Shown: positions 16,599-54,100, counted from the first letter of the stretch. The stretch: DNA of 64,000 nt from Patescibacteria group bacterium (GCA_004297735.1 SCTI01000001.1:190435-254434); one strand, 5' to 3'. Notes: generated by a model from the letters alone, not told the origin. Program-made: numbers and translations.

Positions 16599-17360
16599 AT
16601 GAGTAACCAAAAAATAGCCTCCCTGATAAAACTAAATTGGACTGCAGCAGCACTGCATTTAGCGCAGGGCATAGCGATTGTGGCTTTAAGCCGCGACTTT
16701 ACTTTGCCAATCTCGGTTAGCTTTTTACAGTTTAACCCCGCCACGCAAAACCTTGAGCCAACCTCGACTCCATTGTTCGACTTATCGCTACCGTGGCTGG
16801 TGGCATTATTCTTGTTCCTGTCTTTCCTGGCACACTTAACCATTGTTACCGTTTATCGTCATCGATACGTGGCTGATTTGCAAAAGGGCATCAACAAAGC
16901 TCGCTGGATAGAGTACAGTCTGTCGGCTTCGGTAATGATTGTAGCTATCGGATTACTCGTCGGTATCTATGATATAGCCAGCTTAATCGCCCTGTTTGGG
17001 TTGATAGCAATCATGAATCTATGCGGCCTGATTATGGAAGTCCACAATCAGACAACCAAGAACACTAACTGGCTAAGCTACTGGGTAGGCTGCCTGGCGG
17101 GGATAATTCCCTGGGTGATGATTGCGATTTACCTCTGGGCCGGAGCCGACAACGGCAGCCAGGCGCCAACCTTTGTTTACTGGATATTTGTTTCCATTTT
17201 TGTATTCTTTAACTGTTTTGCAATTAATATGTTTCTGCAGTACAAAAAGATTGGGCCATGGGCTAACTATCTTTACGGCGAAAAAGTATACGTCATTTTA
17301 AGTCTTGTCGCCAAATCAGCTTTAGCTTGGCAGGTATTTGCCGGAACATTGCGACCCTAG
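16599..17360 (+). CDS. Heliorhodopsin
   Basis: 253 aa, 7 TM. Blocks highly similar to characterised heliorhodopsin 48C12 (from memory): RWIEYSLSASVMIV (counterion Glu in RW-EYS), GCLAGIIPW, YVILSLVAKSALAWQVFAGTL with the Schiff-base Lys in LVAKSALAWQ. Conserved His in TM1 (AALHLAQ) and TM2 (FLAHLTIV). Confidence 0.85.
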   Translation: MSNQKIASLIKLNWTAAALHLAQGIAIVALSRDFTLPISVSFLQFNPATQNLEPTSTPLFDLSLPWLVALFLFLSFLAHLTIVTVYRHRYVADLQKGINKARWIEYSLSASVMIVAIGLLVGIYDIASLIALFGLIAIMNLCGLIMEVHNQTTKNTNWLSYWVGCLAGIIPWVMIAIYLWAGADNGSQAPTFVYWIFVSIFVFFNCFAINMFLQYKKIGPWANYLYGEKVYVILSLVAKSALAWQVFAGTLRP

Positions 17361-48589: not shown

Positions 48590-48628
48590 ACGCCCCGCTA
48601 GCTACATGCCGGCGGGGCGCTTTTATTC
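48590..48628. terminator. Bidirectional hairpin terminator, copy 1 of an identical 39-nt repeat
   Basis: ACGCCCCGCTAGCTACATGCCGGCGGGGCGCTTTTATTC: 8-bp GC stem CGCCCCGC/GCGGGGCG, then TTTTATT. An identical copy lies at 50766-50804. Confidence 0.65.
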
Positions 48629-48636
48629 GATCGTAT

Positions 48637-49206
48637 TCAGCTACTGATGACGTCTCCGTCCCCATCGAGGCCCATCTCGACGAGGATTTTGTCCAGGTCG
48701 CCCTCGATCAGCACCGACTCGCGATAGTACGCAAGGAGCTCGGCGCCGCACCGCTCGACCTCTTCCTTGAGAATGACGCCAATCGCCTGCGGGAGGTAGT
48801 CGTTCTTGGGATCCTTGAACAGCCGGAGCAGCTGATCTCGCTCGAGGGCGCCGATTTCGTGCTGCGGCTCGTCCTCCGTTCCGTGATCGAGCCAGGCCAG
48901 CCAGCGGGCCGGGTACTTTGAGGAATCGAGAACCAACAGGATCGAGCCTCTGGCGCTTTCCCCTGGCTGAAGCAACGGTACCCAGGATTGGGCACCACAG
49001 AGCGGAACCACCATCAAGTCTTGAAACCTCGGCTCCTTGATGAACGGCTCGCTGCACGAACCATCGGATTCATCGGTGTATGCCTTCAGCGGTTGCCCGC
49101 CGTGCTCCTTCAAAAATGGGAGCGCTCTCTCTACGACTCGCTCGAGAGCGATCAGATGGAGCTCGGCCTGCTGGTGGGTGTAAGGATCGGTCATGGTAAG
49201 CCTCAC
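48637..49206 (-). CDS. Hypothetical protein co-oriented immediately downstream of the RT gene (candidate retron accessory/effector)
   Basis: 189 aa, about 62% GC, acidic C-terminus (DGDGDVISS). No recognised domain. 100-nt gap to the RT stop. Lies between the RT and the repeat-1 terminator. Confidence 0.45.
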   Translation of the reverse strand: MRLTMTDPYTHQQAELHLIALERVVERALPFLKEHGGQPLKAYTDESDGSCSEPFIKEPRFQDLMVVPLCGAQSWVPLLQPGESARGSILLVLDSSKYPARWLAWLDHGTEDEPQHEIGALERDQLLRLFKDPKNDYLPQAIGVILKEEVERCGAELLAYYRESVLIEGDLDKILVEMGLDGDGDVISS

Positions 49207-49277
49207 TCAGTTGTACTGTCAAAAAGACTGTGTGATTTATACCATATATAAAAGCATATTCAAATAATGGCTGCTTC

Positions 49278-49310
49278 CCGGTTTTGGTCAGATCCGGAAA
49301 CTGATACTAC
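49278..49310. repeat. 33-nt element CCGGTTTTGGTCAGATCCGG(A/T)AACTGATA(C/G)T, copy 1 of 3
   Basis: Also at 52104-52136 and 53467-53499. Each copy sits 0-6 nt 3' of the stop codon of a minus-strand island gene. Confidence 0.7.
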
Positions 49311-50296
49311 CCTCGGAAGAGGCGCTGTAGCCACTCCTCCATGGGGCTGAGCGGAACTTTGGGCCGAGTAATCGGCTTGACGTAGGTGTACTTCCGCCAA
49401 ACCAGCGCCGCCTGACGATCAAACGGAAAGCCGCCAAGGGCTAGGTGCTCACGCAGAGCGCCCATACGGCCCTCTACCACGCCGGGTTCAATTGCCTTGC
49501 CCACGCGATTACTCTTGCCGTTAACCAAGCAATACATGCTGCCCTCTAGGCCCTGCAGCCACTTGCGCGGCAGGTAGATGGCAAAGGCACGATTGATGTC
49601 ATCGCTAGCTTCACCGGCGCTTGGACCGGCACCCAACCTTAGACCGGTGATCATGACCGGGCGACGAGCCACGTCGTAGTAGCCAGTCTTCTTGTAGTTG
49701 AGTCGGAAGCCACTGCGCTTAATGACAGCTCGAATTGCCTCGCGCTTACGACGACCAATCGGCTCCCAGCTCGAAAACACCAGATCGTCGATATAGCGCG
49801 TATAGGTCAGGCTCCAGCGCTCGGCTAGCTCAATCAACGCCTCGTCAAGCTTACGAGCCGCAACCTGGTTGAACAGATCGGTGGCTGCCGGCGTACCGGT
49901 CATTAGCCCTCGGCCACGAGGAGTGGCCAGGTAGCGACGAACGAAATCCTCCATGCCTACCTGATCTACCCAAAGCTCTGACTTTACTTCAGCCAGAACC
50001 GGATACAGCCACTCGGGGCGAACCGACGGGTAGGCGTTGTACAGATCCAACTTGTAAACGTAGTGGTTACCCCAATGCTGCATAGCGCAACGAACGGCTG
50101 AGCCACCACGTACACCACCAAAGTTATGTGATGGGATGCCAAGCTGTAAGCGTGTTTCGCGGATAACCTGGGCATGCACCTCGCGCATGGCTGCATTGGG
50201 CACAAACACCTCGCGCCGTTTACCGCCATTGCGACCGTTGATGAATCGGCGCTCCGTTGCAGGAGGCGCCGTAATGCTACGGGTCTCCTTAGACAT
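49307..50296 (-). CDS. Reverse transcriptase, retron-type (small stand-alone RT)
   Basis: 329 aa. RT motifs: SHNFGGVRGGSAVRCAMQH (retron-like HxF..GRS...NA..H block), motif A YKLDLYNAYPSV, motif C YIDDLVF (encoded 49784-49795), and PVMITGLRLG corresponding to the retron VTG motif. No maturase/En domains. RBS GGAGG 7 nt upstream. Confidence 0.75.
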   Translation of the reverse strand: MSKETRSITAPPATERRFINGRNGGKRREVFVPNAAMREVHAQVIRETRLQLGIPSHNFGGVRGGSAVRCAMQHWGNHYVYKLDLYNAYPSVRPEWLYPVLAEVKSELWVDQVGMEDFVRRYLATPRGRGLMTGTPAATDLFNQVAARKLDEALIELAERWSLTYTRYIDDLVFSSWEPIGRRKREAIRAVIKRSGFRLNYKKTGYYDVARRPVMITGLRLGAGPSAGEASDDINRAFAIYLPRKWLQGLEGSMYCLVNGKSNRVGKAIEPGVVEGRMGALREHLALGGFPFDRQAALVWRKYTYVKPITRPKVPLSPMEEWLQRLFRG

Positions 50297-50765
50297 TGCG
50301 CCTCCAATTGTAAAAGTATTATCGTGACGACCCGGCGGGGTCTGGAGAAAGACGACAACATGGGTTTACCGGGCCGTGCGCCCTCGCTGCGGCGCGCCCG
50401 AGTGGCGGTCACCGGCCTGCGGAGCAGACCAGCTGCTCTTCTGCCACGAGCGCTCACGCGCCGCGGATGAAGAACCGGCCACCTCATCGTGCCGCAGCCT
50501 GCGCTGGAGCTCCCGCGTACGAGAGCCTATAGACCACCTACACGCTACGGAATGGCTACCGCGTTGGCGGAGTGGCTACCGCTCGTTTGCGTCAGTTGGC
50601 CCAACCTCGTCGTTTGAACGACCAGGCACTGGTGTTAGGACGGTTGTCGACCTTACATCTCCAGACCCCACCTATAGGGTGTCACTACTTACCGAACACC
50701 TATCGGTAGCGTCATGATAGCAGGCCTGTGCATATGGAGGCAATATTAGTTACCTTAAAACTTCA
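50297..50765 (-). ncRNA. Candidate retron msr/msd non-coding RNA region (GC-rich 5' leader of the RT gene)
   Basis: 469 nt with no plausible ORF (all frames Arg-rich nonsense). About 64% GC. Multiple local palindromes (GGAGCTCC, GAGCAGctggtCTGCTC, CACCCTATAGGTGG). Confidence 0.3.
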
Positions 50766-50804
50766 ACGCCCCGCTAGCTACATGCCGGCGGGGCGCTTTT
50801 ATTC
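50766..50804. terminator. Bidirectional hairpin terminator, copy 2 of the identical 39-nt repeat
   Basis: Identical to 48590-48628. Separates gene 50799..51476 from the RT unit. Confidence 0.65.
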
Positions 50805-51476
50805 AACTGAGCCCCACATGTGGAGCTTGACCGAATTCTGAGGACGCTTCAAGATCTGCTCACGCCAAACGAAGTCAGGGTGGAGCTGGCCTTTCTGCCT
50901 AAGAACCAGACAGACCGTATCTACCAGCTCGTTCCAGCGGATGTTGTAGTTCTCGAGGTAGGGGAGAAGCCGCGCGATCGTCACCCGCGGCGGCGCCTCT
51001 AGCGTGCGCTTGTAAAAGCGGCAAATTTCGTACTCGTCGCTGCCGGCTTTAAGCGCGTGCTCCAGTGTGATCTGAAGTCGCTGGTTACGGCGGCACACAT
51101 CAAGGAGCTGCTCCAGACTGAGCGGGAAGTATGCCATTTCGGCCAAGGCATACTCGCACCAATCGCGCACAAACTGGCGACGGGCCACCCCAAAAGCAGT
51201 GACCTGCGTTTTGGCCTCATCTAGGTGCTCGCTAATCTGCGCTAGATTGAGCTGCACCAGGCCGGGCTTAGAGCCCAGCTTGCGGTAGAAGAGATGGCTG
51301 TCGGGCCGGCTACTAAAGTAGCGGGCGGCGGCGTTAAACGCACCTTTAGCCAGCTTAGTCCGGCCGTTTGCGACGTTAAACCTTACCGCGTCATCCATGG
51401 TGGCCCAAAGCTCCACGCTACTACTAGTGCCGCCAAGCGTCGAGAAGCTGGTAAAGCCAGAAGGAGTGCTGTGCAT
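50799..51476 (-). CDS. Hypothetical protein (island gene)
   Basis: 225-aa ORF, about 60% GC, no recognised domain. Confidence 0.4.
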   Translation of the reverse strand: MHSTPSGFTSFSTLGGTSSSVELWATMDDAVRFNVANGRTKLAKGAFNAAARYFSSRPDSHLFYRKLGSKPGLVQLNLAQISEHLDEAKTQVTAFGVARRQFVRDWCEYALAEMAYFPLSLEQLLDVCRRNQRLQITLEHALKAGSDEYEICRFYKRTLEAPPRVTIARLLPYLENYNIRWNELVDTVCLVLRQKGQLHPDFVWREQILKRPQNSVKLHMWGSVE

Positions 51477-52103
51477 AGATTATTCCTCAATCTCGCTGTC
51501 AAAGAAGAAGGACGGCCGAAGCCGTCCCGTGTACACCTCCATACGGAGATGGCGCCGGCCTAAGGGTGCTCTCGGACACCCAGAGGCCTACTCAGTGTTT
51601 CTTTATCCCCCTGAGTTACCGGGGTTTATTTTCGGCTTACCGAGAGTTACCGTCCAGCAACACTACAATTAGATGCAGGAGGTGGATACCCCTAACAAAC
51701 TGACGCTTCCACACTACCCCTAGGAGGTAGCGCGTCAGGCTGACTGGTACTACCATCCACCTGTGAGGTCAGCTCTCCAACTTGCCGCTGATTTACGTCG
51801 CAGCGACTATCAGGTGCAGAGGTGGCTCGAGGCGTGGTCTCGTTAACCTTTCGAGCTTGGCTTATGCCTTGCCCTTGGCACGAGCAACATCGCTGTTGCC
51901 ACTGTTTGAGATACTATCATTTTATGTGTTTTTGTCAACATGCCAAAGAGTCTCGAGTGAGTCGATTTATTACCGATTATTCAAAGCACAAAATTGCCGA
52001 GCTATTTTCGCAGGCGGTGGATTTGCATAAAACTTAAACCAGTTTTAGTTGTGCAGTTTCGTCCTTTTGGACTCGTCAGAACACATACACATGTATTGAC
52101 TGC

Positions 52104-52136
52104 TCCGGTTTTGGTCAGATCCGGTAACTGATAGTG
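52104..52136. repeat. 33-nt element, copy 2
   Basis: CCGGTTTTGGTCAGATCCGGTAACTGATAGT. Lies 3 nt 3' of the stop of 52139..53386. Confidence 0.7.
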
Positions 52137-52138
52137 GT

Positions 52139-53386
52139 TTAGGCCCTAAGTGCCCCCGTGGCGCGATAGGCCTCGAGCCACCTCTCGTTATAGAACCAGT
52201 CAGGCACATATGCACTCTCGATTTCGCCCTCGCTAGAGAGCACCTGGTGGGCCCAGACGCACCGACCCTCGCTGCCGCGAACGCGACTTCCAAAGCCGCT
52301 GTTTACCCGTAGACCTGCCTTTTCGGCAACCACTTCGGGATACCGATAGGGACCGTCAAAGCCGCCGCTGACACTCAGGTAGAGGTCGTCCAGTTCGCAC
52401 ACAGCCAGGACCAATCGCTGGATCTCAGCAATCCCCTCAAGACTCAAGCAACGAGTCCGCGAGGCATGAACCGTGATCGAGGAGCCAGCGGCGTAAAACG
52501 GATGGTTGACGTTTGTCCAGCCCCTCAGAGACTGGTCGTCTTCATCGTCCCGCAACGACCCTTCTGGCGGCAGAACCGCCTGAACAGCCATACCGCGAAT
52601 CAGAGCGGAGGTGTGCCCATTGATCAGCCCAACTGAGATCTTATCTCGGCTCATGACCGGGTGATACCCGGGCACGATACTGAGATCAAGGCCACCACCT
52701 GGCTTAAACAGGCCGTGCCACAGCCTGAATGACCGCTCTGAGTCACCGATCTCAAAGGTGACCAGCTGCAACCAGTCGTAACTCCATCGCCCACTAAGCG
52801 AGTGGGTGATGCCGATCTCTTGGATCTTGGGATGGTCAAGTGCTACAAGTAGTGCCGCTTCAAGGCTATTGACCGCAGCGAACACCACTTCGATTTGAAG
52901 CTGTTCCAGGGCCTCAGCCAGCATTCCAACCGACATGCAGTTGAAGACCGGATTCGGAACGTATGTATTGAGTGTTCGCAGCGACAGCCAGTGCGAAGAG
53001 CGACCAATCCGAGACCGGTGTAGCGGGCCACATGTGTGGTAACGGCTCACCCAGTAGCGCTGGGTATGACTAGCGATCCGGCGCAACGCCCACAGGTGCT
53101 GCTGTCCGGTTGTGCCCGGAAGCATTATCACTGCGCTTACCTGGTAGAGGTGGTCGAGGAGCACCCGTGCAACAGGTGCGCCATCGCGATAAAGCTTGAC
53201 CTCAAGCGAGCGACAAAAGTAGCGCCACTCCAGATCATCCTCGGCGTACTCGAAAGCAAGCTGAGGGTTCTTCACTCCCATATAGGGCAGCGATGGGTTA
53301 CGACCGCGGCTGCGTTGCCACATGCCGTGCAGCAGGACGTACTCGGCGGAACCTGGTTCGTGTCCTTTCAAGATACTCTTTTTCAC
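52139..53386 (-). CDS. Hypothetical protein (island gene), C-terminal half weakly resembles the PNP/MTA-nucleosidase phosphorylase fold
   Basis: 415 aa. Segment VFAAVNSLEAALLVALDHPKIQEIGITHSLSG loosely resembles the glycine-rich nucleoside-phosphorylase family-1 core. The assignment is tentative. Confidence 0.4.
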   Translation of the reverse strand: MKKSILKGHEPGSAEYVLLHGMWQRSRGRNPSLPYMGVKNPQLAFEYAEDDLEWRYFCRSLEVKLYRDGAPVARVLLDHLYQVSAVIMLPGTTGQQHLWALRRIASHTQRYWVSRYHTCGPLHRSRIGRSSHWLSLRTLNTYVPNPVFNCMSVGMLAEALEQLQIEVVFAAVNSLEAALLVALDHPKIQEIGITHSLSGRWSYDWLQLVTFEIGDSERSFRLWHGLFKPGGGLDLSIVPGYHPVMSRDKISVGLINGHTSALIRGMAVQAVLPPEGSLRDDEDDQSLRGWTNVNHPFYAAGSSITVHASRTRCLSLEGIAEIQRLVLAVCELDDLYLSVSGGFDGPYRYPEVVAEKAGLRVNSGFGSRVRGSEGRCVWAHQVLSSEGEIESAYVPDWFYNERWLEAYRATGALRA

Positions 53387-53466
53387 TTCTAATCCTTATG
53401 ACGAGATGGACAAAGAATGACTTATTATACAATTTATTATAATTAAATTCAAATAATTCAGCTTCA

Positions 53467-53499
53467 CCGGTTTTGGTCAGATCCGGTAACTGATAGTGC
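53467..53499. repeat. 33-nt element, copy 3
   Basis: CCGGTTTTGGTCAGATCCGGTAACTGATAGT. Lies 5 nt 3' of the stop of 53504..53917. Confidence 0.7.
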
Positions 53500-53503
53500 G
53501 GGC

Positions 53504-53917
53504 TCAGCCCTGTGGACAAGAGAGAAACACGTACTCTCCGTCGCGCCGCTGAAAGCGACTGATCGTGCTCCAGTCCTCAAACGAAGGGGCGAAGCCGAGA
53601 TGGCGGCGCGCCATGATCTTGTTGAGAACCTGGCGCGTAGCGCTGAACGCGTTGACATAGCCGTAGTAGGTCGCGGTCACGTCGGGGGTCCAGGTGCCGG
53701 TCTGGCTCATGGAGTAGTTGCAGGCCGCGGCGACCTGGTAGAACTGCTTGACGTACCAGCTGTACATCCCCTTGGGCGCGATGATGGTCGACGGACCGGG
53801 GGAGGCGTACGTCGCGCCACCTGAGCTACCGTCCGAACCTCCCGCCAAAGCGGAGGGGGCGGCGATCAGCGAACCGATCACGGCGATCAGGATGAGGATG
53901 TGACGGGAACGGGGCAT
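53504..53917 (-). CDS. Small secreted hypothetical protein (island gene)
   Basis: 137 aa. Signal peptide MPRSRHILILIAVIGSLIAAPSALA. About 63% GC. Confidence 0.45.
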   Translation of the reverse strand: MPRSRHILILIAVIGSLIAAPSALAGGSDGSSGGATYASPGPSTIIAPKGMYSWYVKQFYQVAAACNYSMSQTGTWTPDVTATYYGYVNAFSATRQVLNKIMARRHLGFAPSFEDWSTISRFQRRDGEYVFLSCPQG

Positions 53918-54025
53918 TGCCCCTCCTTTGGTACAGGAAGGATTCTTTTACCTTCGTGCGAAATATATTACCATAAGTTCTTTATTTTGTCAACATATCT
54001 GCCAGATATAAAGAGTGATAATTCC

Positions 54026-54100
54026 TGGTAGTCCCACGGGGACTCGAACCCCGGTTACTGGAATGAGAATCCAGCGTCCTAACCACTAGACGATGGGACC
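54026..54100 (-). tRNA. tRNA-Glu (anticodon CUC)
   Basis: Reverse complement GGTCCCA-TC-GTC TAGTGGTTAG GAC-G-CTGGA TTCTCAT TCCAG-TAAC-CGGGG TTCGAGT CCCCG-TGGGACT-A-CCA. Anticodon CUC. Confidence 0.8.

What the first reader, a model, noticed from the sequence alone, without database searches (positions are those of the whole stretch)
49278..53499. 33-nt element repeated immediately after the stop codon of three island genes
CCGGTTTTGGTCAGATCCGG(A/T)AACTGATA(C/G)T occurs at 49278-49310, 52104-52136 and 53467-53499. Each copy lies 0-6 nt downstream of the stop of a minus-strand gene: the RT, the 415-aa ORF and the 137-aa secreted ORF. The copies are nearly identical although the genes are unrelated, and the element has only weak self-complementarity. 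This strict placement at the 3' end of each gene resembles a cassette-boundary or recombination site. It could also be a conserved RNA-processing or 3'-end protein-binding site, or a miniature mobile repeat.
Basis: seen in the sequence. Interest (0 to 1): 0.6.

Follow-up and report, generated by a model that had tools for sequence, protein, structure and literature searches.

The report
RNA pseudoknot ending island gene cassettes
The repeated 33-base element is real and encodes a tiny RNA pseudoknot with no match in Rfam 15; it ends each gene unit in a variable tRNA-linked island of a Patescibacteria genome and also occurs in many phage contigs just upstream of tRNA genes and gene starts, which points to marking or protecting RNA ends more than to DNA recombination.

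Summary
Three copies (31/31, 31/31 and 29/31 identical) lie 2-10 nt after the stops of three unrelated minus-strand genes, and there are no others in the 64-kb window.

Five more copies occur in four related Patescibacteria contigs. Each also sits right after a gene, at junctions of modules whose order and presence differ between genomes downstream of a conserved tRNA-Glu. The cassette-boundary picture is therefore descriptively correct.

The element itself is a compact H-type RNA pseudoknot:
- stem 1: N-CAG/CUG-N'
- loop: UU(N)
- stem 2: loop CYRG pairing with tail CYRG
- an A-rich third loop ending in CAAAA

A degenerate pattern found it in 19 viral contigs, against 1 for a non-pairing control. 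Both stems covary there: 12 compensatory, 3 wobble and 0 mismatched variants in stem 2. In phage contigs it lies 5-9 nt upstream of tRNA 5' ends or 16-29 nt upstream of start codons. In two Patescibacteria genomes a type III hammerhead ribozyme abuts it and would cut 7 nt downstream.

Rfam 15 has no matching family. The closest fold is the preQ1-I aptamer, but the element is not a member.

Best reading, moderate confidence: an RNA punctuation element that caps a 3' end, with a cut made just downstream. No integrase, attC features or terminator features were found.

The parts
53467..53493 (-). Pseudoknot copy 3, after the 137-aa gene. Stem 1 UCAG 53493-53490 pairs with CUGA 53480-53477. L1 is UUA. 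Stem 2 CCGG 53486-53483 pairs with CCGG 53470-53467. L2 is AU and L3 is CCAAAA.
   Evidence: R2 41.2 bits
52105..52131 (-). Pseudoknot copy 2, after the 415-aa gene. Same anatomy as copy 3 and identical to it over 32 nt.
   Evidence: R2 40.9 bits
49278..49304 (-). Pseudoknot copy 1. It starts 2 nt after the RT stop codon, and L1 is UUU.
   Evidence: R2 43.5 bits
52051..52105 (-). Type III hammerhead ribozyme abutting copy 2. The predicted cut follows GUC, 7 nt 3' of the pseudoknot.
   Evidence: RF00008, 43.2 bits, E=3.9e-7, below the gathering score of 48.5. The orthologue in L008 scores 44.6 bits and has compensatory changes in stem I.
53453..53459 (-). GAATTAT, 8 nt after copy 3. The same heptamer follows tRNA-Glu at 54018-54024. 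It is the right-hand junction of the 137-aa cassette insertion relative to L008, and also a possible AU-rich RNA cleavage site.
   Evidence: read. An AWTTATT motif lies 5-7 nt after 6 of the 8 Patescibacteria copies.
53424..53452 (-). Sigma-70-like promoter (TTGAAT-17-TATAAT) of the 415-aa gene, downstream of copy 3. In L008 the same promoter sits directly after tRNA-Glu.
49236..49263 (-). Promoter-like TTGAAT-16-TATAAA downstream of copy 1, ahead of the 189-aa gene.
   Evidence: read from the sequence; not listed by the scan
54026..54100 (-). tRNA-Glu(CUC). The conserved edge of the variable array lies just after it, at ...ACCAGGAATTAT.
53504..53917 (-). 137-aa gene with a predicted signal peptide. 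Cassette 1, absent in L008.
52139..53386 (-). 415-aa gene of unknown function. Homologues occur in L008 (74%) and L014 (41%).
49307..50296 (-). Retron-type reverse transcriptase, 329 aa.
50334..50672 (-). Retron non-coding RNA region bounded by a 15-nt inverted repeat (a1/a2-like). It is 90% identical to L013 1-300.
   Evidence: (I19)
48590..48628 (.). 39-nt terminator hairpin repeat (T39), copy after the 189-aa gene. The identical second copy lies at 50766-50804, after the 225-aa gene.
   Evidence: (D2)
50766..50804 (.). Second T39 copy, overlapping the stop of the 225-aa gene.
   Evidence: D2

Best explanation
The 33-nt element is the DNA copy of a compact H-type RNA pseudoknot, transcribed as the tail of the gene in front of it. 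Stem 1 is N-CAG/CUG-N' (4-7 bp). The hairpin loop is UU(N)-CYRG-(A)U, and its CYRG pairs with a CYRG tail that follows an A-rich stretch ending in CAAAA (stem 2, 4-5 bp). This structure is shown by covariation.

The function is inferred. The pseudoknot acts as RNA punctuation: it becomes the 3'-terminal structure of the upstream RNA once a cut is made 5-10 nt downstream, and it shields that end from 3' exonucleases or separates neighbouring RNA units. The cut would come from different sources:
- RNase P, at the 5' end of a tRNA, in phage tRNA arrays.
- A type III hammerhead ribozyme, at the two copies behind the 415-aa gene.
- A host endoribonuclease acting on the AU-rich AAUUAUU stretch, at the other island copies. 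This last step is the most speculative.

Because every small promoter-gene-pseudoknot unit of the tRNA-Glu-linked island carries one, the near-identical copies also mark, and probably help by homology, the points where units are gained, lost or swapped.
For: Structure:
- In 33 distinct copies, 93.6% of cells pair, and 0 of 500 shuffles reach the observed pairing or covariation score. Sliding the partners drops pairing to 50% or less.
- The base before CAG pairs with the base after CTG in 27 of 33 copies, using 4 pair types. This position was not fixed by the search pattern.
- Stem 2 was tested with patterns that left one pair free. The results were CTGG/CCAG in 8 loci, CCAG/CTGG in 4, wobble in 3 and mismatch in 0.
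- The third loop base pairs with the base after the tail: G-C, G-C and C-G in the variants, A-U in copy 3.
- G-U pairs occur on the sense strand only, so the structured strand is the sense strand.
- The pattern gave 19 viral hits, against 1 for a control with a non-complementary tail.

RNA-level role:
- Copies are co-oriented with the flanking genes and tRNAs in most viral loci and in all 8 Patescibacteria copies.
- They lie 5-9 nt upstream of tRNA 5' ends in at least 6 phage families.
- A hammerhead cut site lies 7 nt downstream in the window and in L008. A conserved ribozyme there means transcription reads through the element.
- The 12 nt after the pseudoknot are 67% A+U, against 51% locus background.
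- The two copies that lack AAUUAU are exactly the two that have the ribozyme.

Boundary role.
Against: - There are no expression or 3'-end data, so the function is inferred from position only.
- The pseudoknot is small, and its resistance to exonucleases is untested.
- In phage contigs the spacing is tighter to the downstream feature (tRNA at 5-9 nt, start codon at 16-29 nt) than to the upstream stop (12-108 nt). This would suit a leader element acting on the downstream RNA equally well.
- In the window, predicted promoters lie between copies 1 and 3 and the next gene. No defined cut site is known there.
- The viral members were collected with a pattern that fixed about 19 bases, so the apparent conservation of the loops among them is partly by construction.
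- If the motif were a general RNA 3'-end device, one might expect it elsewhere in this genome. It is confined to the island.
Confidence: 0.45

Rival explanations
1. Leader element for the downstream RNA. The pseudoknot acts on what follows it. It could be an insulator that lets the tRNA, ribozyme or ribosome-binding site fold or be used independently, a 5' stabiliser, or a binding site for a regulatory protein or small ligand, given its preQ1-I-like fold.
For: Spacing to the downstream feature is tight in phage contigs: tRNA at 5-9 nt, start codon at 16-29 nt. It directly abuts the hammerhead stem III. The topology matches the preQ1-I aptamer, with L1 = UU, a short stem 2 that is self-complementary in most copies, and an A-rich L3 (the comparison is from my own knowledge of that riboswitch).
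Against: In the window, copies 1 and 3 lie upstream of the predicted -35 of the next gene, so they would not be in its transcript. Start codons there are 80-100 nt away. L2 is only 1-2 nt and lacks the ligand-pairing C. The Rfam preQ1 model gives no hit. No common downstream protein family was found.
Confidence: 0.2
2. DNA recombination site of an integron-like cassette system. Each promoter-gene-element-AATTAT unit is a mobile cassette. The element would fold in single-stranded DNA and be recognised by a recombinase that crosses over at the AATTAT core, with the tRNA-Glu flank GGAATTAT as the primary site.
For: The 137-aa cassette is present in the window and absent in L008, bounded by a duplicated GAATTAT. 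The 133-aa cassette has (C/G)AATTAT 16-23 nt upstream in L008, L010 and L013. Module order differs among genomes. All copies share one orientation at gene 3' ends. The copies within one genome are homogenised. L013 shows a true 20-nt duplication of the tRNA 3' end ending at the same GGAATTAT, which indicates integrase action at that point.
Against: No recombinase was found in the island or among 20 other window ORFs. The attC core motifs GTTRRRY and RYYYAAC are absent. The same motif occurs singly in phage tRNA arrays and upstream of ORFs, where no cassettes are evident. Two copies lack AATTAT. The spacing from element to AATTAT varies. Similarity of the element to the tRNA is not significant. 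The boundaries could equally arise from homologous recombination between repeats.
Confidence: 0.15
3. Unconventional transcription terminator that ends each island transcription unit.
For: The element occupies the place that ordinary terminators occupy after other genes of the same array (T39 after the 225-aa and 189-aa genes) and after the 415-aa homologue in L014. A promoter for the next gene follows it at copies 1 and 3. Several phage copies are followed by a U-rich stretch, for example L029 CACUUUUUUAU.
Against: There is no G+C-rich hairpin followed directly by a U tract, and the terminator scan did not call it. A conserved, covarying hammerhead immediately downstream of two copies, and tRNAs 5-9 nt downstream in phage contigs, require read-through.
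Confidence: 0.1
4. Functionless repeat spread by duplication and gene conversion inside a recombining locus.
For: Copies 2 and 3 are identical over 32 nt although their orthologue in L008 differs, which indicates gene conversion. The locus holds another perfect repeat, T39.
Against: The motif is conserved with compensatory changes across unrelated phage contigs of 37-61% G+C and across Patescibacteria genomes whose flanking intergenic DNA has diverged.
Confidence: 0.05

Closest known systems
preQ1-I riboswitch aptamer (Rfam RF00522)
   Same: Both are a very small H-type pseudoknot. Both have a 4-6 bp stem 1, a first loop of UU, a short stem 2 made by a 4-nt loop segment (self-complementary in most copies) and the 3' tail, and an A-rich third loop just before the tail.
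   Different: The second loop here is only 1-2 nt and lacks the cytosine that pairs with preQ1. The Rfam model gives no hit. The element is not placed over a ribosome-binding site or a terminator. Its neighbours are tRNAs, a ribozyme and unrelated genes, not queuosine genes.
Integron attC sites (for example the Vibrio cholerae repeats)
   Same: Both are a repeated element directly after the stop of each of several unrelated genes, all in one orientation. Copies are very similar within one genome. Both have conserved paired parts around a variable middle. Neighbouring gene content varies between relatives.
   Different: There are no RYYYAAC or GTTRRRY cores and no long imperfect hairpin with extrahelical bases. 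No IntI or attI was found. The cassettes here carry their own promoters. The motif also occurs outside cassette arrays, in phage contigs.
Intercistronic 3' stabiliser structures such as REP/BIME hairpins
   Same: Both are a structured element just after a stop codon. It could block 3' exonucleases after a downstream cut and so set the stability of the upstream message.
   Different: This element is a pseudoknot, not a long G+C-rich palindrome. It is not dispersed over the genome. It is shared with phage contigs.
MALAT1/MEN-beta 3'-end module (a protective RNA structure followed by a tRNA-like RNA cut by RNase P)
   Same: In phage tRNA arrays the arrangement is a structured element with U-rich and A-rich loops, a few nucleotides, then a tRNA. 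RNase P cleavage would leave the structure at the new 3' end.
   Different: There is no evidence for a triple helix. The element is bacterial or viral and much smaller. The analogy comes from my own knowledge and is untested.
Phage morons (self-contained promoter-gene-terminator units inserted between genes)
   Same: The island units are small, individually promoted genes with their own 3' element, and they are gained and lost between close relatives.
   Different: The units lie in a chromosomal tRNA-linked array, not in a prophage, and the 3' element is not a standard terminator.

Membership tests
Integron attC site | 5' core RYYYAAC and 3' core GTTRRRY forming the R''/R' boxes | tested here: not met
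   In the gene direction the element reads CAGTTWCCGG...AAAACCGG. No GTTRRRY or RYYYAAC is present at either end.
Integron attC site | Integron integrase (tyrosine recombinase) and attI next to the array | tested here: not met
   The island ORFs and 20 other window ORFs of 250-470 aa give no recombinase domain. The rest of the 273-kb contig was not available.
Integron attC site | One site at the 3' end of each cassette, all in one orientation, with variable cassette content between strains | tested here: met
   All 8 Patescibacteria copies follow a gene in the sense orientation, and module content differs among the window, L008, L010, L011 and L013.
Intrinsic (Rho-independent) terminator | G+C-rich hairpin immediately followed by a U tract | tested here: not met
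   The element was not called by the scan. Stem 1 is 4-7 bp and is followed by an A-rich loop. A ribozyme or tRNA lies directly downstream.
REP/MITE-type dispersed repeat | Many copies scattered over the genome, in both orientations or with terminal inverted repeats | tested here: not met
   There are only 3 copies in 64 kb, all in the island. No copy lies outside the variable array in about 180 kb from relatives. The whole genome was not available.
tRNA-derived att repeat (displaced tRNA 3' end) | Significant sequence identity to the 3' part of the adjacent tRNA | tested here: not met
   Local alignment to tRNA-Glu scores no better than shuffles (p about 0.05 to 0.4). A genuine 20-nt tRNA-end duplicate in L013 looks quite different.
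preQ1-I riboswitch | Match to the family model, and a conserved cytosine in loop 2 that pairs with the ligand | tested here: not met
   No RF00522 hit even at E<=10 on an 81-nt stretch. Loop 2 is U or AU.
preQ1-I riboswitch | H-type pseudoknot with UU first loop and A-rich third loop | tested here: met
Hammerhead ribozyme type III (the neighbour of copy 2) | CUGANGA and GAAA cores, three stems with stem III open, and a cleavage triplet NUH | tested here: met
   The sequence is GCAGUC / AAUACAU-GUGU-AUGUGUU / CUGACGA / GUCC-AAAA-GGAC / GAAA / CUGC. RF00008 scores 43.2 and 44.6 bits, E of 4e-7 and 1e-6, both below the gathering score of 48.5. Stem I shows compensatory changes between the window and L008. 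Cleavage activity was not tested.
Retron (context of copy 1) | Retron-clade RT with an adjacent non-coding RNA bounded by inverted repeats | tested here: inconclusive
   The RT matches PADLOC retron RT models (up to 84 bits) and NCBIfam retron St85 (87 bits, cut-off 235). A 15-nt inverted repeat bounds a 339-nt upstream region that is conserved in L013. Production of msDNA is not testable here.

The most novel reading that the evidence does not exclude
The element is the founding example of an undescribed, widespread class of RNA 'punctuation' pseudoknot. It would be shared by phages and mobile islands of ultra-small bacteria and would define RNA ends together with a cut a few nucleotides downstream. 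The cut would be made by RNase P, by a hammerhead ribozyme, or possibly by the motif itself as a new small self-cleaving ribozyme. This would be a bacterial and viral counterpart of the MALAT1 ENE-mascRNA way of making a stable 3' end.
Probability: 0.25. Interest if true: 0.8.

Novelty: new variant of a known kind. Interest (0 to 1): 0.6.

Why it matters
- If the structure and role hold, this is a new, very small RNA motif with strong covariation. It links three ways of cutting RNA (RNase P, a hammerhead ribozyme and host endonucleases) to one conserved neighbouring fold.
- It would give a handle on how phages and mobile gene cassettes separate and stabilise individual RNAs within long transcripts.
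- It provides a sequence marker for a tRNA-Glu-linked hypervariable locus in Saccharimonadia-like bacteria, where small secreted-protein genes and a retron are gained, lost and reordered.
- Because its fold resembles the smallest known riboswitch, it is an attractive target for structural and ligand-binding tests.

Tried and rejected
- **Transcription-factor operator upstream of promoters.** This was my first reading, because copies 1 and 3 lie about 15 nt upstream of a -35 box. I rejected it because the distance between the two conserved halves varies from 12 to 19 nt and more, two copies precede a ribozyme rather than a promoter, and the paired positions covary.
- **Simple hairpin TTWCCGG/CCGGWRA.** Only one compensatory pair was found, and 150 of 500 shuffles did as well. 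The 3' flanks vary in the viral copies. It was replaced by the pseudoknot. The innermost of those pairs survives as an optional fifth pair of stem 2.
- **tRNA-derived att site.** Not significant.
- **Exact 20-mer scans.** They gave 1 hit in the representative genomes (L001, part of a 16-bp palindrome in an Actinomycetota MAG, probably chance), 0 in viral contigs and 3 chance hits in metagenomes.
- **BLAST of the element against plasmid and phage records.** Only A+T-rich chance matches.
- **Homologues of the 189-aa protein.** None but itself.
- **Integrase hunt in the window.** Negative.
- **Neighbour proteins of the viral copies.** No shared family.
- **Cultured-phage relatives of two viral loci.** The motif region was not matched or annotated.
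- **Literature.** Searches for a hammerhead-retron link, for Patescibacteria hammerheads and for a phage tRNA-array pseudoknot found nothing relevant.


Full report
**1. The observation**

All three are in the same orientation with 0 mismatches to the degenerate pattern. No match occurred in 100 shuffles. Copies 2 and 3 are identical over 32 nt, and copy 1 differs at two positions. Allowing up to 11 mismatches finds nothing else in the 64 kb.

The ORF table places the copies directly behind the stops of three minus-strand ORFs: 329 aa, 415 aa and 137 aa. The 329-aa protein is a retron-type reverse transcriptase. The other two have no match in Pfam, PADLOC or NCBIfam.

**2. The surroundings**

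The genes lie downstream of tRNA-Glu(CUC) at 54026-54100. Read on the minus strand, the order is:
- tRNA-Glu
- promoter and 137-aa gene
- element copy 3
- promoter and 415-aa gene
- element copy 2
- about 570 nt of non-coding DNA
- 225-aa gene
- a 39-nt terminator hairpin (T39)
- retron non-coding RNA and RT
- element copy 1
- 189-aa gene
- a second, identical T39

The source is a Patescibacteria MAG; the 415-aa protein is NCBI EPO04_01490 on a 273-kb contig. Close homologues of the neighbouring histidine kinase are labelled Saccharimonadales or Saccharimonadia.

**3. Related genomes**

The island proteins have few or no homologues. I therefore used the conserved histidine kinase next to the tRNA to fetch syntenic loci.

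In every relative the tRNA and its 3' flank ...ACCAGGAATTAT are conserved, and the sequence diverges completely right after it. The element recurs in four relatives, always just after a gene and in the sense orientation:
- L008: after the 415-aa homologue and after a 133-aa gene.
- L011: after the 140-aa homologue of that gene, whose stop lies inside the element.
- L013: after the 133-aa gene and directly before the retron.
- L010: after the 133-aa gene and before the 189-aa homologue. This array lies 5 kb from the tRNA.

It is absent from L009 and from the more distant L014, where ordinary terminators occupy the same places.

Module content and order differ between genomes. The 137-aa gene plus copy 3 is missing in L008, where the 415-gene promoter abuts the tRNA; GAATTAT is found at both ends of the extra segment. 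The stretch between copies 2 and 1 holds the 225-aa gene and the retron in the window, but only a 133-aa gene in L008. L013 also carries a real 20-nt duplicate of the tRNA 3' end, ending in the same GGAATTAT, on the far side of an inserted trypsin-like gene.

So the element does sit at the seams of a hypervariable, tRNA-linked array.

**4. What the element is**

My first structural guess was a hairpin, TTWCCGG/CCGGWRA. It had only one compensatory pair and no statistical support.

A degenerate pattern built from the eight Patescibacteria copies then hit 19 viral contigs. A control pattern with a non-complementary tail hit 1. In these hits the positions that the pattern did not fix covary. The base before CAG pairs with the base after CTG, and the helix often extends further.

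I tested a second helix, the loop tetranucleotide against the tail tetranucleotide, with two scans that each left one pair free:
- Loop CTGG with tail CCAG: 8 loci.
- Loop CCAG with tail CTGG: 4 loci.
- Wobble combinations: 3 loci.
- Mismatched combinations: none.

On an alignment of 33 distinct copies, 93.6% of cells pair. There are 29 double changes against 9.6 expected, and 0 of 500 shuffles reach the observed values. Sliding the partners collapses the pairing. Relaxing the first loop showed UUU, UUG and UUC, with the third base pairing to the base after the tail. Stem 2 is therefore often 5 bp and the first loop is UU.

The element is thus an H-type pseudoknot:
- stem 1: N-CAG/CUG-N'
- L1: UU(N)
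- stem 2: CYRG with CYRG
- L2: (A)U
- L3: a variable part followed by (C)AAAA

G-U pairs occur on the sense strand, and the motif is co-oriented with neighbouring genes and tRNAs. This points to RNA.

Rfam 15 has no family for it, even at E<=10 on an 81-nt stretch.

A caveat applies. The viral members were collected with patterns that fix about 19 bases. Their loop conservation is therefore partly by construction, and the true family may be broader.

**5. Context clues to function**

- In phage tRNA arrays the pseudoknot lies 5-9 nt upstream of a tRNA 5' end. This holds in at least six sequence families: L017, L027, L033, L036-40, L041-43 and L047.
- In other viral contigs it lies 16-29 nt upstream of a start codon.
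- In the window, copy 2 directly abuts a type III hammerhead ribozyme at 52105-52051 (RF00008, 43.2 bits, E=3.9e-7, below the gathering score of 48.5). The ribozyme would cut after GUC, 7 nt beyond the pseudoknot. The orthologous position in L008 has the same ribozyme (44.6 bits) with compensatory changes in stem I.
- The other six Patescibacteria copies carry AWTTATT 5-7 nt after the pseudoknot.
- Across all 33 copies, the 12 nt after the pseudoknot are 67% A+U, against 51% background.

In three settings, therefore, an RNA cut is known or expected a few nucleotides 3' of the pseudoknot.

My best explanation is that the pseudoknot is an RNA punctuation element that ends up at, and protects or defines, the 3' end of the upstream RNA. 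The structure is shown. The function is inferred from position.

**6. Rivals**

- **Leader or insulator role for the downstream RNA.** The phage spacing fits this equally well. It fits the window less well, where predicted promoters lie between the element and the next gene.
- **Integron-like recombination site.** This explains the boundary pattern and the AATTAT junctions. Against it, no recombinase was found, the attC cores are absent, and the motif occurs singly in phage contexts without cassettes.
- **Terminator.** This is contradicted by the conserved ribozyme and the tRNAs immediately downstream.
- **tRNA-derived att site.** Not supported.
- **Functionless repeat.** Contradicted by the covariation.

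The near-identity of the three window copies contrasts with the divergent orthologue in L008. This indicates gene conversion or recent recombination between copies. The copies probably also serve as homology patches for shuffling, as a by-product.

**7. Comparison with known systems**

The fold is closest to the preQ1-I aptamer: a small H-type pseudoknot with a UU first loop, a short stem 2 (self-complementary in most copies) and an A-rich third loop. The element fails membership, because it gives no model hit and lacks the ligand-pairing cytosine.

The genomic picture resembles integron attC arrays and phage morons. The proposed mechanism resembles intercistronic stabiliser hairpins and, for the tRNA-linked copies, the MALAT1 ENE-mascRNA arrangement. 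These comparisons rest on my own knowledge of those systems. I found no paper describing this motif.

**8. Verdict**

A dedicated recombination site is not shown.
- The element is a new small RNA motif family within a known structural class, shared with phages.
- Interest is moderate to high, mainly because of the clean covariation, the link to a hammerhead ribozyme and to tRNAs, and the testable 3'-end model.

Noticed in passing
window 52051-52105 (-); L008 2618-2672 (+): A type III hammerhead ribozyme lies directly after element copy 2 and after its orthologue in L008. It scores just below Rfam's gathering score. Stem I shows compensatory changes between the two genomes.
   Followed up: yes
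window 49307-50720 (-); L013 1-300: A retron-like unit: a 329-aa RT preceded by a roughly 340-nt non-coding region bounded by a 15-nt inverted repeat (50334-50348 / 50658-50672). The non-coding region is 90% identical in L013, where it follows an element copy.
   Followed up: partly
window 48590-48628 and 50766-50804; L010 3802-3834: A perfect 39-nt direct repeat of a terminator hairpin flanks the retron plus the 189-aa gene. A 91% identical copy follows the homologous gene pair in L010.
   Followed up: partly
window 51818-51833 and 52170-52185: A perfect 16-nt inverted repeat. One arm is inside the 3' end of the 415-aa gene and the other is 336 nt downstream. Together they bracket element copy 2, the hammerhead and a promoter-like site. 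Unexplained.
   Followed up: no
window 51480-52050 (-): About 570 nt of non-coding DNA with promoter-like sites (51946/51938..51911) and a terminator-like hairpin (51528-51509) just before the 225-aa gene. No homologue was found in the related loci. It may encode a non-coding RNA.
   Followed up: no
L013 876-897 and 1865-1885: A 20-nt duplicate of the tRNA-Glu 3' end (GTGGAACTACCAGGAATTAT) lies on the far side of a roughly 1-kb insert carrying a trypsin-like protease gene. This is the signature of site-specific integration at the tRNA, yet the insert has no integrase.
   Followed up: partly
L010 3849-4726 (-); window 48637-49206 and 50799-51476: Homologues of the 189-aa protein and of the C-terminal half of the 225-aa protein are adjacent and overlapping in L010. 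In the window the retron separates these two genes. They may be a two-gene system or retron partners.
   Followed up: partly
L029 223-260 (+): A second, weaker pseudoknot copy lies in tandem just upstream of the main one. It has a different stem 2 (loop GCUG, tail CAGC), which is a further covarying variant.
   Followed up: partly
L036 4039-4133, L038 1358-1452, L040 10664-10758 and others: In several phage tRNA arrays, the tRNA right after the pseudoknot is a 95-nt tRNA-Ile(UAU). That is unusually long and may indicate an intron or an extra arm.
   Followed up: no
L001 2920-2980 (-): The only representative-genome hit to the 20-mer core lies in an Actinomycetota MAG. There it is one arm of a perfect 16-bp palindrome (CGGTTTTGGTCAGATC...GATCTGACCAAAACCG) between two ORFs. 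It is probably a chance match to the core, and the palindrome itself is unexplained.
   Followed up: no
L002, L006, L007 (Logan contigs of SRR8426595): The short-read assembly of the source sample breaks exactly at the repeats. L006 runs from copy 2 to copy 3, and L002 from one T39 copy to the other. Such islands will therefore be fragmented in k=31 assemblies.
   Followed up: yes
window 16599-17360 (+): A heliorhodopsin gene (Pfam PF18761, E=1.8e-98) in this Patescibacteria genome.
   Followed up: no
L009 9733-9793 (-): The promoter region that drives the 137-aa gene in the window is conserved (84%) right after tRNA-Glu in L009. There it is followed by about 300 nt without an ORF.
   Followed up: no
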